Shown piece after piece: positions 34,432 to 40,205 of a stretch of DNA of 64,000 nt. Position 1 is the stretch's first letter. Every line of letters starts with the position of its first letter. The notes below the pieces were generated by a model. The model was not told where the DNA came from. It did no database searches and saw nothing but the letters and a program-made list of their open reading frames with translations. Location: assembly GCF_009914755.1 (NCBI RefSeq), contig NC_060938.1, one strand, 5' to 3'. Position numbers and translations under genes: made by a program. The DNA is from the human T2T-CHM13v2.0 reference genome, Homo sapiens.

Positions 34432-37400
34432 GTAAGTGGCTGGAGTGTAAAGAACACACATGTGGCCTTGCTGCTGAGGGTGGGGCCAGCTGCCCGGAGC
34501 ACACCGCCAGGCGGACCTCGTGGAGGGGCTGGCGGGCACTGGCCGGGGGTCTGTGTACCGGGAGGTGGGTGCCCATCGAGTCAAGCCAAGTGCAGACCTG
34601 GGGGCTCCTGTTTTCTAAGACAGGAGCCCCCTGCCTCCTTGTGTTGTCTCTGTGGCAAAAGAATTCTATAGGCGGGCTTCAAATGTCGGACCCCAAAAGA
34701 ATTTCTTCTTTTTCACTCTTCTAAATGAATGGCTCTTTCATTATTGAGTCTCCCTTTGGCTCTTGTGCCGCAGGGCAGACTAGGATGGAAGTGCCCTGTG
34801 AGCTGGGGGGCCCTTCAAAGGGCCAAGGAGAAAACGCAGGCCGAGGGACCAGCCTTCCAAATGGGCTTCAAGCTCCAATGACCTCCGCTCGCCCCCTCGA
34901 AATGTCTGGAAAACATAATGGGCAGATTTTCTGTCTTCAAAGTTTCCGGCTAAACCTCTTCAAGTTCTTTATTGTTTGGGACTGAGACACTCAGCCATGT
35001 TAATGGGTAGTTTCTTTTGTATTTGCCTTGAAAGGCCAAAATATTTTTATATTGCCACAGACAAAGCCACCTATTTAAAAATGAACTCCATGTCCGTCGT
35101 TTCCCACCAGGAGACTATGTACCATGTGTGTGTCTCTATGTATTCTGGGGTCTTGAAACAGGTTTCTCATGGGGATGGTCATTCACCACGGTCCAGAGGG
35201 GCAGAACAGGCGGCGCTTGCCTTGCCCAGGGGGCCTGGGGAACGTGGGCCCTCATCTCAGATCTGCCCCCAGTATGTTTAGGACGCGAGCCCCAGAAGGA
35301 TCTGGGAGTAAACTTAACATTCACTGTGTCTCTGCTCTGCATCCGCCATTTGTGTGTGTTTCTGGACTGTGGGCTGTGTGTACCTTGGTTGGTGACTCAG
35401 TGAGAAGAAGCAGGAATGCCAAAGATACTATGAATGTTCTGAGTTTTGTTGCTGTTGTTGTTGAGAGGTTGTTTCACTGGTATCTATTGCATTGTATAAT
35501 AAATGACCAGATGAATGAATGAGTGAAGCAAGAGAGAATGAATAAACAAGTAAATAGGTAAAGAAGTAAGCAAGCCAGGATGAGAGTGTGTGTACACAAG
35601 ACCATGGTTCATCCGCTTTGATGGCTAGGCAATCAATATATAAATAGAAAAAACCCAGTGAATCACTAAGTAATAGGGCAACACACAAAGCGATATCAGG
35701 TGATTATGGACTAAGGGGTATGTGTAACTCAAATATATGCCTCTGACATTTGACAATGAAAAAGAACCTAAATGAAAGAAAGAATGGATGTATGAGTAGT
35801 GAAGTGCAGAATGAGACATAGATTTTGAGGCCCGTCAAAATGAAAAGATGCAAGTTAGGGAACAAGTGATCAAAAGGGAGAAGGGAAAGGTTTTTTTTAA
35901 AAAACCAAAACAACAAAGAAAGGTTAAAAAAAAAAACAGACTAGAGGATGAGTAATGAGTAACTCTGTAAGGAGGACCATGTCAGACTATTGTAAGCTAA
36001 GCATTAGGACTGATACAAATAATATATGCTCCTGGCATAGAAAAATAAACCACAGAGAACGAGTTCAAAGAATAGCAAAGAAAGAAAGAGGACCCAGTGG
36101 GCGAAAGATGAGAGTGTACTTTTACCAAAAGTTATCTAAGCCTGAGCACTTGAAGTCTGCACATAAATAAATAAATGACAAAAGAAAGAAAAAAAGGCCA
36201 AAAAGTCTACATTGCGTGTGTGGATGGATGAATGAGCAGTGGGAGTGCAGCGCCAGGTGACAAGATGTTGTGAGGGGTTTTGAGTCATCCAGTCCTGGGC
36301 ACTGAGGTCTGTTAGATGAAAGGATATGAGAAAGGTAATATTGGTAAATAAAGAAATAGGAAACAATGTAACAAATGTTAAGTACAGAAATACATTAATG
36401 GGTGGTAAATAAAGATGTAAAAGAAGGCAATGCGATCGATGGTGGCAAAAGATCATCACAGATTAAGGGCTATGGCTGGTCCACTTCTAGAAAACCACAG
36501 GCTGTCCATTAAATAATGAACATCTAAGTGAACAAGTCAGTGAGTATCTAAATAGACAAGGATGAGGTGAATGAGAAGACATGGCCCCATGGGTCCTCCT
36601 GATGAGGGTGTTGGGGTCCCCCCTGGGCACCCCAGCTGCATGAAAATGAAGGACAGGAGGTATGGAAAGCTATGACAGAAGAGAGAAAGGAACGGTAAAA
36701 AGAAATAACAACCAAATGGATAAATGGGTAGATCCACGAGAAGAGTTAGGCTAGGACTTGTCATAAGGGCACCTGACTCCACTAATAGAGGAATAAATGC
36801 CTAATAAAAAGAGAGCAAGCAGGAAGGAAGGATGCTATGAATGCAGGAAGGAAGTAATGAGTGAGACGTGGAACCGCACGGCCAAGGATGGACGTTTGCG
36901 GGTGGCTTTTTGATGCGTACAGCCAAGCCACTCCATGGCAATGAGCTCCGAAGACAAAGTGCAAGAGAGAATGAGTGAGAGAGTGAGAGAGAGAGAAACA
37001 ATAAAAAATGGGAAGAAATGTAAAAAGGAAGAAAGGAAGAGAGGTAATATATTAAGGAATAAATACATGCATGCAGATTTAAGACAGAGCCATGCTAGAA
37101 CAGGAATGAAAGGCTGTGTGAACCAAGCAGACCGCTTAATTGGCACCAGTGCTGCTGGTATGGTCAATCACCTACTCAACTAAGGAACGGCTCAAAGCAT
37201 ACACATGGGAGGGAGGAGTGGGGCCACAGAGAGAGGGCCCATTAGTTGCAGATTACGATGTATCCAGTTAGGTGCACCTGCCTTCGAGAAGTGTAAAAAT
37301 AAGTATTTACATAGAAAGAAAGACTGAATGGATGCACGGTGAATGCATGAATGATTGAACGACAGAAAAGATTTGCATTGACCGATGAGGAGGGCATTGT

Positions 37401-38206
37401 AGACAGGGATGAGGGTCATTGATCCTGGGTGCAGATCTCCAAAAGAATGACAGAAAGAAAGAGGGAGTGGTGGAAAGAAACAATAGGATGGGAAAAAATG
37501 AAAATAGGAAAAAAGGAAGTGAAAGAGATAATAAATAATTAGATCAAATAAGTTGATGAAAGGGGACTGGTTTAGCACAAGCCATCCACATTAATTCAAA
37601 CCTGTGGCTCTGAAGTTTGTTTTTTAAATGACCACAAGTGTAAGACTGAATGAAAGAATAAATGCGTGCATTCCATAGGATGCAAGAAAAGGAGTGAGGA
37701 ATGGGAAAATTGGAAGAACGAGAGGGGGAGAGATGTAAGAAAAGAAAGGAAAAGTGAAGTAGGCATATGAAAGAAAAGGCACTTCTTGGACAAGCACTGA
37801 AATATAATGAGACAGTTTTACCCATTAAATATAATAAACAGTAAACGTTGAGGTTCATCAATAAAAGCACAGATACCTGAATAGAGGAGTGACCTGAATA
37901 GAATTCGTTCAGCCGAACGAATGAGAATGGATGATTTTCACTATCCTGTGCACTCAAGGCCCAAAAGAGAAAGCAAGAGAGGAGAGAATATGGAAACGTA
38001 TGACAGGATGTATATAAGCAATACAAACATATTGAATGAATACATAAAGACATAAATATGTGGGAGAGTGGACCACGCAAGGACAAAAAGAGGAGAGAAG
38101 GCAGCAAGAATTATGACTAATTCAAAACTGGGTTCCTGAGATAGTTAAATAAATCCTGCACCAAATCCCCAGGGGGAGAAATTAACAAACAAAAGACAGC
38201 CCCACA

Positions 38207-38276
38207 CGGACCAGTGTGCAGAAGGCTCCGGGAACCGCAGATTATGGTTAATCCAATTCTGTGCACCTGAGGTCCA
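38207..38276 (+). pseudogene. Best-preserved SNORD112-like copy
   Basis: Terminal stem GGACC (38208-12) / GGTCC (38271-75), D' CAGA, C' ATGGTTA, box D CTGA (38267-70); box C decayed to GTGTGCA; 70 nt. Confidence 0.8.
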
Positions 38277-39202
38277 TAAATAAAAGAATAAGTATTGAAA
38301 TGAAAGAATGACAGAAAGAATGAATGGACACATGAACGACTGAATTAGAAATGGAAATGCCTGGCACAGCCAGGAAGGAGCTGCCCATGGGATTGTCATT
38401 CATCTCACTCTGGGCACCTGAGGTCCATAAGCGTGAAAAGAGGCAGGAAGAGAAGTGTCAGGGAGTCAAAGATAGAGCTAAGGAAAGGCAAAAATGAAAC
38501 TAAATGAAAGCGAAAGGGAAAATAAAGAAAAACCAATAAAAAAGAGAACGAATACGTGGGTGTATCTGTAAGAGTAGGATCTGTTAGGATTAGTCATAAG
38601 ACTGTCAGTAATCCTGAAGATGGATGAGATAATCCAGGCCCAGGTTCCCAGGGGGAGGGAAAATGGAGAAAATATAAAAAGATGTGAAAAAGGAAAAAGG
38701 AAAGGTAATAAACAAACAACCAAAGTGATAAATGGATAGTTAAGGGAGGTTGTCTGAACAGGGATTATAATTAGTTTACATACATACTCCTTAAACAGAT
38801 AAATACATTACACCTTTCAAAGAATAAATGAAAAATAGAGAGACATACCTGGCTCCAAAACAAGGCTGTATCTTCTGCCACTGTAATAAAATAGATGCAA
38901 TTGAGGTTCATAAATAAAAGAATAAATACTTAAACGTGAAAGGTGACTAAATGCGGGGAAGAAAGATTGCAAATAAATACATGGGCCAAAGATGTTTGGT
39001 TTGCCCATGGAGTTTTAATTAAAAAAATTAATAAGGAAAACAAATACCCAAAATAAGGAAGACTGACAAATGAGTGAGTAGATGAGAGAGTGAATGGTGC
39101 TTGACGTAGGAGCAGTAGTGCTTTAGGGACCAGCATGAAGGTGGTGACCGGGAGCCCTGATTCATGGGATTCTGTCCACCTGACTTTATAAGAACCAAGA
39201 AT

Positions 39203-39513
39203 GGCTGGGAATGGTGGCTCACGCCTGTAATCCCAGCACTTTGGGAGGCCGAGGTGGGCGGATCATGAGGTCAGGAGTTTGAGACCAGCCAGTTTGAGAT
39301 CAGCCTGGCCAACATGGTGAAATTCCATCTCTACTAAAAAAATACAAAAATTATGGGCGTGGTGGCACCTGTCTGTAATCCTAGCTACTCGGGAGGCTGA
39401 GAGAGGAGAATTGCTTGAACCCGGGAGGTGGAGGTTGTAGTGAGCCAAGATTGCACCACTGCACTCCAGCCTGGGCTACAGAGCAAGACACTATCTTAGA
39501 TCAAAAAAAAAAA
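39203..39513 (+). mobile_element. Alu (AluS-like) inserted in the snoRNA-like array
   Basis: Sense Alu with A-tail; internal 15-bp duplication agtttgagaccagcc/agtttgagatcagcc. Confidence 0.95.
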
Positions 39514-39631
39514 GAAGGAGAAAGAACCAGAGAAACATAAGGAAGAGTGAGAGGAAGAAAGAAAGATGCAATTTGGGAAGAAATGAAAAAGAAATGAATA
39601 AAGAATAAAATAATGTAACGGTCAATAAATA

Positions 39632-39698
39632 GGACTTGTGAATGGAGGCCTTTAGGCCAAAGGCTATGATTAATTTCAAGCTATGTTACTGAAGTCCA
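39632..39698 (+). pseudogene. SNORD112-like copy with intact stem, C' and D boxes
   Basis: GGACT (39632-36) / AGTCC (39693-97) stem, C' ATGATTA (39666-72), D CTGA (39689-92), C-like GTGAATG. Confidence 0.7.
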
Positions 39699-40205
39699 TA
39701 AACAAAGGACTCAGATCTAAATGGATGAACGAATGACTGGAAGAAAGGGTGGTAGGAAGGTAGGAAGAAAGGAAGGAGGGAAAAAGGGAAGAGAGGAAGG
39801 AACCTTCTTTCCAGTCCTGTGTTCTAGACAGTGGAATGAAGTGGTCCCCAGGGAGGGTGGCTGTAGGCATGTCATGTGCTTGTCACATGCACTTGCCCTG
39901 GCAGGGAGGAGCTGGCTCAGGAAGACCCTGGTCTTGGGGTGCTGTTGCCCTATCTTGGCTGTGTGGGCCATTTCACTGCATCTGTCTCTTCCTCAGTTTC
40001 CCCATCTGTAAACCTGGAGTGGCACCAGCTGCCTACTAGAGTTGATCTTATGTGTCTCTGTTGATGGTACCCCATCTATGGCCTGGATAGGCAGGAAGGG
40101 CTTGGACCCTGAGCCCCGCAGAAGGTTGCATGAACGAGTGGTGTGAAGCCTGTTGGGTAGCTTGGCCACTCCCGCGGCATGGGTCACCTGCACAGGAGGT
40201 TTTGC

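What the first reader, a model, noticed from the sequence alone, without database searches (positions are those of the whole stretch)
35570..39700. Hidden cluster of SNORD112-like box C/D snoRNA units inside the last MEG3 intron
Seen: this A/G-rich 4-kb stretch holds roughly 15-20 related 55-80-nt units on the MEG3 sense strand, about 150-300 bp apart. Examples: 38207 cGGACCagtgtgcagaaggctccgggaaccgcAGATtATGgTTAATCCAaTTCTGtgcacCTGAGGTCCA; 38367 ...ctctgggcacCTGAGGTCCA; 36250 ...TGAgTcATCCAGTcCTGggcaCTGAGGTCt; 37220 ...cAGATtAcGATgtATCCAGTTaggtgcacCTG; 37787 TGGAC...ataATGAGACAGT...TGAGGTtCAT; 35573 ...gATGAGAgtgtg...ACAAGAcCATGgTTcATCC. Recalled knowledge: 14q32 snoRNAs are about 70-77 nt, begin TGGACC/TGGATC plus box C and end CTGAGGTCCA. 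SNORD112 as I recall it reads TGGACCAATGATGAGACAGTGTTTATGAACAAAAGATCATGATTAATCCAGTTCTGCACAAAACACTGAGGTCCATT, and its distinctive interior recurs here. The known clusters lie further downstream in MEG8. Inference: an additional, mostly decayed imprinted snoRNA expansion hosted by MEG3, with many copies in one intron rather than one per intron. I know of no annotation for it.
Basis: partly seen in the sequence, partly recalled or inferred. Interest (0 to 1): 0.92.

Follow-up and report, generated by a model that had tools for sequence, protein, structure and literature searches.

The report
Decayed SNORD112-type repeat array in MEG3
A 4.3-kb purine-rich block in the last MEG3 intron is a fossil tandem array of about 18 worn-out copies of the SNORD112 small nucleolar RNA gene, which looks like an evolutionary relic and not a working snoRNA cluster.

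Summary
The genome's own SNORD112 (chr14:95133350-95133426, outside the window) was used as the query. Its five best nhmmer matches in the 64-kb window, both strands searched, all lie at 35570-38278 on the + strand. Five hits of 2 bits or more compare with 0.15 expected in shuffles, and 0 of 200 shuffles reach that count. A profile of 23 SNORD112-type sequences from outside the array puts its six best window hits in the array. SNORD113 and SNORD114 profiles show no enrichment.

An in-array seed finds 18 units of 1.5 bits or more, and an iterated profile converges on 11. The units sit in a higher-order repeat of about 485 bp. The host block at 35.5-39.8 kb is 65-67% purine with sharp edges.

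The units are dead as snoRNAs:
- 0 of 18 keep a full box C.
- 10 of 18 keep a CTGA.
- The best copy (38207-38278) scores 36.1 bits, below Rfam's cut-off of 58.
- One unit (about 37546-37622) keeps the C core, box D and a weak A/U stem.

I found no prior description, but the key 2002 paper was not readable. Interest is moderate to low: an evolutionary relic, not a hidden functional cluster.

The parts
35501..39810 (+). Whole array block: purine-rich (R 0.64-0.67, A about 0.40), holds all SNORD112-type units; sharp compositional edges
   Evidence: Composition; no other 1-2 kb bin across 204 kb reaches this purine level. All profile hits lie here on the + strand. The block is unique in the genome.
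38207..38278 (+). Best-preserved unit. The terminal 5-bp stem and box D (CTGA) are kept. Box C is lost; its place now pairs with the region upstream of box D.
   Evidence: Rfam SNORD112 36.1 bits, E 1.2e-4, full model 1-77. External profile E 4.1e-9. 71% identical to real SNORD112 over the body and 79% over the 3' half. Fold -23.9 kcal/mol, z -2.04.
37546..37622 (+). The only unit with the box C core (TGATGA at 37554), CTGA (ending 37613) and a possible 7-pair A/U-rich terminal stem; the body is heavily diverged
   Evidence: Motif scan found 1 candidate on the + strand and 0 on the - strand. In shuffles, 24 of 200 give a candidate with a stem of 4 or more pairs and 0 of 200 with 7 or more. The minimum-energy fold does not form the stem, z +0.85. 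54% identical to SNORD112.
37218..37290 (+). Unit; 3' half and downstream flank well kept, D box mutated (CTGC)
   Evidence: Seed hit 29.3 bits, E 3.7e-8. Motifs.
39631..39703 (+). Last unit, beyond the Alu; CTGA kept
   Evidence: Seed hit 21.0 bits, E 1.4e-5. External profile 8.9 bits.
38358..38429 (+). Unit; D box and 3' stem arm kept, 5' half lost
   Evidence: Seed hit 16.0 bits, E 5.3e-4. Motifs.
38076..38147 (+). Unit; CTGA kept
   Evidence: External profile 13.6 bits, E 0.0023. Seed 7.5 bits.
35567..35638 (+). First unit; box C with one mismatch followed by SNORD112-like sequence, D box lost
   Evidence: Real SNORD112 query 9.8 bits, E 0.077. Motifs.
35683..35750 (+). Unit
   Evidence: Member of the converged profile. 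External profile 8.2 bits.
36090..36161 (+). Unit; box C with one mismatch
   Evidence: (6.3 bits), (5.6 bits).
36243..36314 (+). Unit; CTGA kept
   Evidence: Member of the converged profile. Motifs.
36435..36506 (+). Weak unit
   Evidence: Seed 4.6 bits.
36568..36642 (+). Weak unit; holds a TGATGA core at 36600 but no CTGA in place
   Evidence: Seed 4.0 bits. Motifs.
36713..36783 (+). Weak unit
   Evidence: Seed 3.3 bits.
37346..37417 (+). Weakest candidate unit
   Evidence: Seed 1.9 bits. It lies in register with 38358 in the long block alignment.
37788..37859 (+). Unit; box C with one mismatch followed by SNORD112-like sequence; D box TTGA
   Evidence: Seed 4.9 bits. Motifs.
37894..37970 (+). 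Unit
   Evidence: Seed 8.6 bits.
38841..38912 (+). Unit; 3' end and downstream flank kept
   Evidence: Seed 10.2 bits, E 0.036. Member of the converged profile.
39126..39191 (+). Unit just before the Alu
   Evidence: Seed 10.2 bits. Member of the converged profile.
39200..39529 (+). Alu inserted into the array; not part of the repeat
   Evidence: Two Metazoa_SRP partial hits plus Alu-derived miRNA model hits. Masked in the supplied annotation.
38060..38544 (+). One copy of the higher-order repeat of about 485 bp (three subunits plus spacer)
   Evidence: Aligns over 415 nt with 37123-37538 (E 9.5e-13) and over 317 nt with 35999-36315 (E 3e-7). Autocorrelation peak at offsets 480-489: 121 against 1.8 in shuffles, with a second peak at 980-999.

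Best explanation
The block at 35.5-39.8 kb is a fossil tandem array of SNORD112-type box C/D snoRNA gene units. An ancestral unit, a complete SNORD112-like snoRNA plus about 70-100 nt of A-rich flank, was duplicated locally. It first grew to a block of about three subunits (about 485 bp), and that block was then amplified about eight-fold. All of this happened within one MEG3 intron and on the sense strand.

I infer that many snoRNAs packed into one intron, far from the 3' splice site, would have been poorly processed and under no selection, so the copies decayed independently. Today the array most likely makes no snoRNA. It is transcribed passively as part of the MEG3 last intron or of the long alternative terminal exon.

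Shown here: the homology, strand, number of units, hierarchy, uniqueness in the genome, and loss of the boxes. Inferred: the order of duplications, the age, the past function, and the present lack of function.
For: Homology to SNORD112:
- With the genome's own SNORD112 as query, the five best hits in the window are all in the array on the + strand. Five hits of 2 bits or more compare with 0.15 in shuffles, 0 of 200.
- An external 23-sequence profile puts its six best window hits in the array, with 7 hits of 4 bits or more against 0.15, 0 of 200.
- The Rfam SNORD112 model aligns full length to 38207-38278 at E 1.2e-4.
- Specificity control: SNORD113 and SNORD114 profiles built from 8 and 24 MEG8 copies give no enrichment.

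Tandem, local origin:
- All units are on one strand, in a bounded block, spaced 106-505 nt.
- There is a 485-bp periodicity and there are long block-to-block alignments.
- There is no similar array elsewhere in the genome. Only seven short matches were found, five to the 3' half of unit 38207 and two to a simple-sequence stretch.

The ancestor was probably complete. Different units keep different parts: five units keep a one-mismatch box C followed by SNORD112-like sequence, and nine or ten keep CTGA.

Decay:
- 0 of 18 units have RTGATGA. Only two TGATGA cores exist in 4.5 kb.
- The better copies differ by K2P 0.37-0.6 and the median pairwise identity is 0.44.
- An Alu has been inserted.

The setting does not fit processing. 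There are no polypyrimidine-AG sites inside the block, and by the supplied annotation the nearest downstream 3' splice site is at 49581.

Birth-and-death with box mutations is the documented fate of imprinted snoRNA copies at the PWS locus (PMC4063771, passages seen).
Against: - No expression, CLIP or conservation data could be consulted, so 'no present function' is an inference from sequence alone.
- One unit (about 37546-37622) keeps the C-box core, the D box and a 7-pair stem that no shuffle reproduced (0 of 200).
- The 3' halves and the downstream flank are better kept than the 5' halves. Simple neutral decay does not predict this.
- The strong purine bias and an 18-fold excess density of AATAAA are unexplained. 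They could mean the block has some other role.
- About seven of the 18 units rest on scores of 2-5 bits. Each is individually weak, and only their number is significant.
Confidence: 0.83

Rival explanations
1. At least one unit, most plausibly about 37546-37622, is still a working or semi-working box C/D snoRNA-like RNA. It would assemble core snoRNP proteins and either accumulate as a small RNA or protect an end of an intron fragment.
For: The motif scan finds TGATGA, CTGA and a 7-pair terminal stem at homologous positions of this unit. Zero of 200 shuffles give a stem of 7 or more pairs. Published screens accept degenerate C boxes as snoRNA-like (PMC4914119, passage seen).
Against: - A C+D+stem candidate with 4 or more pairs arises by chance in 24 of 200 shuffles.
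- With about 30% divergence per site (my reading of the distances), my rough estimate is that about 0.5 of 18-24 units would keep both boxes by chance.
- The first box C position is T, not a purine.
- The stem is A/U and G·U only, is shifted by two bases, and is absent from the minimum-energy fold, z +0.85.
- The Rfam SNORD112 model does not report this unit at E up to 10.
- It lies about 12 kb from the downstream 3' splice site.
- The 2016 snoRNA catalogue file that was searched has no entry naming MEG3 (two files were not searched).
Confidence: 0.06
2. The snoRNA-derived array has been co-opted. Its purine-rich, AAUAAA-dense RNA (or the DNA itself) would act as a module of MEG3, for example as a binding platform for purine-motif RNA-binding proteins, or in 3'-end choice or nuclear retention of the long isoforms.
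For: - The block is 0.64-0.67 purine with sharp edges, and nothing like it occurs in 204 kb of the locus.
- AATAAA occurs at 6.2 per kb against 0.34 per kb in the rest of the window, and GA-rich hexamers are 2-4 times what base composition predicts.
- By the supplied annotation the block is exonic in RefSeq isoforms with terminal exon 34774-43115/43195.
Against: - No binding, expression or conservation evidence was available.
- Amplifying one purine-rich spacer produces the same bias with no function needed.
- The copies are highly diverged, as expected without constraint.
- No RefSeq functional element is listed in the block.
Confidence: 0.08
3. The units are retroposed or transposon-borne copies, or a low-complexity artefact, and not a local tandem duplication of a snoRNA gene.
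For: SNORD112-like copies are dispersed over many chromosomes: 62 Rfam-model matches at E up to 10, two of them off-locus and above the cut-off. The region is compositionally biased, which can inflate weak matches.
Against: - All units share one strand, one block and a 485-bp periodicity, with co-linear multi-unit alignments.
- The flanks are shared between units. Independent retrocopies would not share flanks.
- Shuffles that keep local dinucleotide content give about 0.1 hits.
- Apart from the Alu, the block is not among the masked stretches listed in the supplied annotation, and it has no genome-wide copies. That search does skip very common words.
Confidence: 0.03

Closest known systems
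SNORD112 (14q(0)), single C/D snoRNA in MEG8, Rfam RF01169
   Same: Same sequence type. The interior and the 3' end of the units align to it. The best unit is 71% identical over the body and 79% over the 3' half. The strand and the maternal 14q32 transcription direction are the same.
   Different: SNORD112 has intact RUGAUGA and CUGA boxes and a 6-bp stem, and scores 106 bits. The array units score at most 36 bits and lack box C. The units lack four bases that present-day SNORD112 has upstream of box D (alignment).
SNORD113/SNORD114 tandem clusters in MEG8 (14q(I), 14q(II))
   Same: Tandem amplification of a C/D snoRNA unit on the sense strand of a maternally expressed non-coding host in the same domain. 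Forty-five copies were found above the Rfam cut-off.
   Different: Those copies are spaced about 0.6-6 kb apart (coordinates), and most keep their boxes; the strict motif scan recovers 29 of 46 known snoRNAs there. One copy per intron is recalled from Cavaillé 2002, which I could not read. The MEG3 array has subunits of 130-200 bp with no splice-acceptor-like sites between them, and its units are of the SNORD112 type, not the 113/114 type.
Pseudogenes in the SNORD115/SNORD116 clusters (birth-and-death evolution, PWS locus)
   Same: Imprinted tandem snoRNA copies that die through mutations in the C and D boxes (PMC4063771, passages seen).
   Different: There, dead copies sit among living ones inside a working cluster. 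Here the whole array is dead and lies in a different host gene from the living family member.
sno-lncRNAs / SPA RNAs (several snoRNAs in one intron)
   Same: More than one snoRNA unit in a single intron of an imprinted non-coding host. Two snoRNAs in one intron is the stated prerequisite for a sno-lncRNA (PMC4234469, passage seen).
   Different: sno-lncRNAs need two intact snoRNAs to cap their ends. Here no unit has a full box C. That paper's main text does not mention MEG3, MEG8 or 14q32.
Degenerate SNORD112-type copies scattered in MEG8 and dispersed genome-wide
   Same: Same sequence type, and also below the Rfam cut-off. Seven lie in MEG8 and others lie on other chromosomes.
   Different: The MEG8 relics are single copies kilobases apart and tend to keep the 5' half with box C. 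The dispersed ones are isolated. Neither forms a compact array with shared flanks.

Membership tests
Functional box C/D snoRNA | Box C (RUGAUGA) near the 5' end | tested here: not met
   0 of 18 units have RTGATGA. The TGATGA core occurs twice in 35400-39900 on the + strand, at 36600 and 37554.
Functional box C/D snoRNA | Box D (CUGA) near the 3' end | tested here: inconclusive
   10 of 18 units have CTGA in the last 32 nt scanned. Nine of these are at the homologous alignment column. A four-base motif is weak evidence.
Functional box C/D snoRNA | Terminal 5'/3' stem bringing boxes C and D together | tested here: not met
   Unit 38207 keeps a 5-bp stem but has no box C. Unit 37546-37622 has only a shifted A/U stem that is absent from the minimum-energy fold. 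The crude scan finds at most 4 of 6 pairs in the other units.
Functional box C/D snoRNA | Accumulation as a small RNA bound by fibrillarin, NOP56, NOP58 and SNU13 | not testable with these tools
   No expression or CLIP data were available. The searched supplement file of PMC4914119 has 0 occurrences of MEG3 (two files were not searched).
Functional box C/D snoRNA | Usual mammalian setting: one snoRNA per intron | tested here: not met
   Eighteen units lie in one intron (34432-49580 by the supplied annotation), with no polypyrimidine-AG sites inside the block. The rule is quoted from PMC11028025 (passage seen).
Rfam SNORD112 (RF01169) | Score at or above the gathering threshold of 58 bits | tested here: not met
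   Best unit 36.1 bits. No other unit is reported at E up to 10.
SNORD112-type sequence family (homology, living or dead) | Significant similarity to SNORD112 and its relatives, more than to SNORD113/114 | tested here: met
   (0 of 200 shuffles reach the observed counts; best E 4.1e-9). SNORD113 and SNORD114 profiles are not enriched.
Tandem (higher-order) repeat array | Head-to-tail copies on one strand with a regular period and shared flanks | tested here: met
   Autocorrelation peaks at about 485 and about 985 bp. Block alignments at E 9.5e-13 and 3e-7. Shared downstream flank. Tandem Repeats Finder itself does not report the array because it is too diverged.
Known interspersed repeat or transposon | Many copies genome-wide, or masked as a repeat | tested here: not met
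   Only 7 short matches elsewhere in the genome (that search skips very common words). Of this block, only 39200-39529 (Alu) appears in the masked list of the supplied annotation. No Dfam or RepeatMasker run was possible.

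The most novel reading that the evidence does not exclude
The array is the remnant of a cluster in which many C/D snoRNAs were once made from a single intron, an arrangement not otherwise known in mammals. 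It would mark MEG3 as an early host of the 14q32 snoRNA family. In addition, it would not be wholly dead: unit 37546-37622, or the purine-rich array RNA as a whole, would still bind snoRNP or other RNA-binding proteins in tissues that express MEG3.
Probability: 0.08. Interest if true: 0.7.

Novelty: new member of a known kind. Interest (0 to 1): 0.35.

Why it matters
It adds a piece to the history of the imprinted 14q32 small-RNA domain. The SNORD112 type, now a single living gene, was once amplified at least twice: as this compact array in MEG3 and as scattered relics in MEG8. So snoRNA birth and death was not confined to MEG8.

The compact layout, about 150-bp subunits in a 485-bp repeat with no exons between them, differs from the living clusters. 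That may explain why this expansion failed.

In practice, it identifies a 4.3-kb purine-rich block that makes up half of the long MEG3 terminal exon. It also flags one unit worth a look in small-RNA data.

It does not reveal a hidden working snoRNA cluster.

Tried and rejected
- Rfam at gathering thresholds over the whole window found no snoRNA.
- Rfam at E up to 10 over 34400-41200 reported only one unit. The family model alone therefore under-reports the array.
- Tandem Repeats Finder found only short purine microsatellites and did not see the array.
- SNORD113 and SNORD114 profiles showed no enrichment, so I rejected a 113/114 origin.
- The whole-genome DNA search found no paralogous array. 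The first try failed because the machine was busy.
- Earlier findings of this scan were not open to the session.
- Cavaillé et al. 2002 and Paulsen et al. 2001 are not held. Whether they mention these relics is unknown.
- Literature searches turned up no paper describing snoRNA-like units in a MEG3 intron.
  - I read passages in PMC2500034, PMC2408620, PMC4063771, PMC4914119 (plus a supplement search), PMC12309372, PMC11028025 and PMC4234469.
  - Of these, I searched only (as 'MEG3 intron'/'Gtl2 intron'), 38, 40, 41, 47, 58 and 59 for MEG3; all gave 0 occurrences.
- No mammalian genome other than this one was available, so cross-species conservation could not be tested.
- I compared the 71-nt repeat at 51.5-52.9 kb with 14q snoRNA profiles. 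The likeness is weak and Rfam finds nothing significant. I leave it open.

Full report
**What is there**

The window is T2T chr14:95046001-95110000. The stretch 35501-39810 differs in composition from everything around it. Its purine fraction is 0.64-0.67 and A is about 0.40, against 0.48-0.51 on either side, and the edges are sharp. No other 1-2 kb bin in the window or in the next 140 kb reaches this level. That copy lies outside the window at chr14:95133350-95133426 and scores 106 bits against Rfam RF01169.

**Is the likeness to SNORD112 more than chance?**

Three queries that owe nothing to the array say yes.

1. The Rfam SNORD112 model aligns full length to 38207-38278 at 36.1 bits, E 1.2e-4. 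This is below the curated cut-off of 58 and it is the only unit reported.
2. With the real SNORD112 as the nhmmer query, the five best hits in the whole window, both strands, all lie at 35577-38277 on the + strand. The control was 200 shuffles of the region that keep dinucleotide content within 100-nt blocks. Five hits of 2 bits or more compare with a shuffle mean of 0.15, and 0 of 200 shuffles reach five.
3. I built a profile from 23 SNORD112-type sequences outside the array: the real gene, seven degenerate copies in MEG8, and 15 dispersed copies. Its six best window hits are all in the array. The best is E 4.1e-9. Seven hits of 4 bits or more compare with 0.15 in shuffles, 0 of 200.

As a specificity control, I built profiles from 8 SNORD113 and 24 SNORD114 copies of MEG8. 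These gave one marginal hit (on the best unit) and none respectively, with their other top hits scattered over the window. The units are therefore of the SNORD112 type specifically.

**How many units, and how are they arranged?**

A single in-array seed (38190-38330) finds 18 + strand matches of 1.5 bits or more in the block. Seventeen are 2 bits or more, self included, against 0.12 in shuffles, 0 of 200. Four of them, counting the seed itself, have E below 1e-3 against the whole window, and six have E below 0.05. Iteration converges on 11 copies and picks up nothing elsewhere in the window. About seven of the 18 are individually weak, at 2-5 bits. Only their number and their register are significant.

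Unit starts are 106-505 nt apart, median 182, worked out by hand. The conserved core is the 3' half of the snoRNA plus about 40 nt of A-rich downstream flank. An Alu at 39200-39529 splits the last two units.

Above the subunits there is a higher-order period. Ungapped self-matches peak at offsets 480-489 (121 against 1.8 in shuffles) and again at 980-999. The stretch 38060-38544 aligns co-linearly with 37123-37538 (E 9.5e-13) and with 35999-36315 (E 3e-7), so three-subunit blocks were copied as a whole. Tandem Repeats Finder misses all this because the copies are too diverged.

**Not a transposon, not dispersed**

A whole-genome DNA search with 35500-39200 returns itself and seven short matches. 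Five of these match the 3' half of unit 38207, and two of those places coincide with SNORD112-model matches. The other two match a simple-sequence stretch. That search skips very common words. However, of this block only the Alu appears in the masked list of the supplied annotation.

**State of the copies**

None of the 18 units has a full box C (RTGATGA). Ten have a CTGA within the last 32 nt scanned, nine of them at the homologous column.

The best unit (38207-38278) keeps the terminal 5-bp stem and box D. Its box C is gone, and that segment now pairs with the sequence upstream of box D.

A motif scan for TGATGA, CTGA 40-120 nt further on, and a stem of at least 4 pairs finds one candidate on the + strand, 37554-37613 with 7 pairs, and none on the - strand. 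The same scan recovers 29 of 46 known snoRNAs in MEG8. A candidate with 4 or more pairs arises in 24 of 200 shuffles, and one with 7 or more pairs in 0 of 200. That stem is A/U and G·U only, is shifted by two bases, and is not formed in the minimum-energy fold (z +0.85). The unit is 54% identical to SNORD112. With about 30% change per site, my rough estimate is that about half a unit among 18-24 would keep both boxes by chance. I treat this unit as a lead and not as a gene.

Different units keep different parts. Five keep a one-mismatch box C followed by SNORD112-like sequence, and others keep the 3' end. This points to a complete ancestral unit followed by independent decay. A consensus built from six units does show both boxes, but its box C rests on three sequences, so I give that little weight.

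**Age**

The better copies differ by K2P 0.37-0.6, and the median pairwise identity in the MAFFT alignment is 0.44, close to saturation. The neutral rate of about 2e-9 per site per year is recalled and comes from no call. With that rate the better pairs suggest roughly 85-135 million years. This is rough because the alignments are uncertain. [quoted passage not shown] I could not test other species.

**Setting**

By the supplied annotation the block lies in the last intron of the selected MEG3 transcript (34432-49580) and inside the long terminal exon (34774-43115/43195) of other isoforms. There are no polypyrimidine-AG sites inside it. AGGTAA occurs four times. AATAAA occurs 28 times, which is 6.2 per kb against 0.34 per kb elsewhere in the window. 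GA-rich hexamers run 2-4 times what base composition predicts.

Animal snoRNAs mostly follow a one-per-intron rule (PMC11028025, passage seen). Two snoRNAs in one intron are the prerequisite for sno-lncRNAs (PMC4234469, passage seen). With no intact pair of units, that route is not open here.

**Best explanation**

This is a fossil tandem array. A complete SNORD112-type unit with its flank was duplicated locally to about three subunits. That block of about 485 bp was then amplified about eight-fold within one MEG3 intron. The copies were not maintained and decayed independently. Homology, strand, number, hierarchy, uniqueness and loss of the boxes are shown. The order of events, the age, any past activity and the present lack of function are inferred. 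I put this at 0.83.

The rivals are:
- A surviving snoRNA-like unit (0.06).
- Co-option of the purine-rich, AAUAAA-dense block as an RNA or DNA module of MEG3 (0.08). This can coexist with the relic origin.
- A transposon, retrocopy or artefact origin (0.03).

Two things do not fit simple neutral decay. The 3' halves and flanks are better kept than the 5' halves, and the block has a strong purine bias.

**Known or new?**

The supplied RefSeq table, Rfam at its curated thresholds, and the searched catalogue file of the 2016 human snoRNA survey (0 occurrences of MEG3; two files not searched) hold nothing here. Six full-text searches found no description. In the papers I searched for the term, MEG3 did not occur; one search was not searched for it. 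The paper most likely to mention such relics, Cavaillé et al. 2002, and Paulsen et al. 2001 were not readable, so prior mention cannot be excluded.

In kind, this is a further case of birth-and-death evolution of imprinted tandem snoRNAs (PMC4063771, passages seen). It is unusual in being wholly dead, compact, without exons between the units, and in a different host from the living gene. I rate it a new member of a known kind with interest 0.35.

Noticed in passing
window 51490-52900, + strand: A head-to-tail tandem array with a 71-nt period and at least 18 copies lies between the MEG3 3' end and MIR493. The unit is snoRNA-sized. It has a TGATGT motif after a GGGACC start and ends near GTCCAG. 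Its minus strand weakly resembles the last 20 nt of 14q snoRNA profiles (1, 3 and 4 of 500 shuffles do as well). Rfam finds nothing significant: SNORD59 at 17.5 bits, E 3.8. Its nature is unexplained.
   Followed up: partly
L034:7495-7551, L034:8751-8820, L035:3007-3074, L036:1409-1480, L036:3952-4016, L037:5997-6067, L043:3064-3135 (G000:C14:95147495-95233135): Seven more degenerate SNORD112-type copies lie singly within MEG8, among and before the SNORD113/114 genes. All are below the Rfam cut-offs (27.9-42 bits). Several keep the 5' half with box C but have lost box D. SNORD112 was therefore once multi-copy in MEG8 too.
   Followed up: partly
G000, many chromosomes (for example L002 = C8:42317817-42317888, L003 = C23:127837358-127837429): SNORD112-model matches are dispersed over the genome. 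There are 62 at E up to 10, and two off-locus copies score above the 58-bit cut-off. They look like old retrocopies.
   Followed up: no
L043:3878-3952 (G000:C14:95233878-95233952): The last snoRNA of the MEG8 cluster passes the SNORD113 model only just, at 37.9 bits. Its interior looks closer to SNORD112 than to SNORD113/114 (sequence).
   Followed up: no
window 35400-39900: AATAAA occurs 28 times on the sense strand, which is 6.2 per kb against 0.34 per kb in the rest of the window. One copy sits in the conserved flank just after the 3' end of several units. Whether these serve as poly(A) signals for MEG3 isoforms is unknown.
   Followed up: partly
window 38205-38280: In the best unit the mutated box C segment forms a 10-bp helix with the sequence upstream of box D, giving a 72-nt hairpin-like fold at -23.9 kcal/mol, z -2.04. 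It is too short for a typical miRNA precursor stem, and I did not pursue it.
   Followed up: no
window 4929-5132: A full-length match to Rfam Mico1 (maternal intergenic circadian oscillating RNA 1) at 178 bits lies upstream of MEG3. It is not in the supplied gene table.
   Followed up: no
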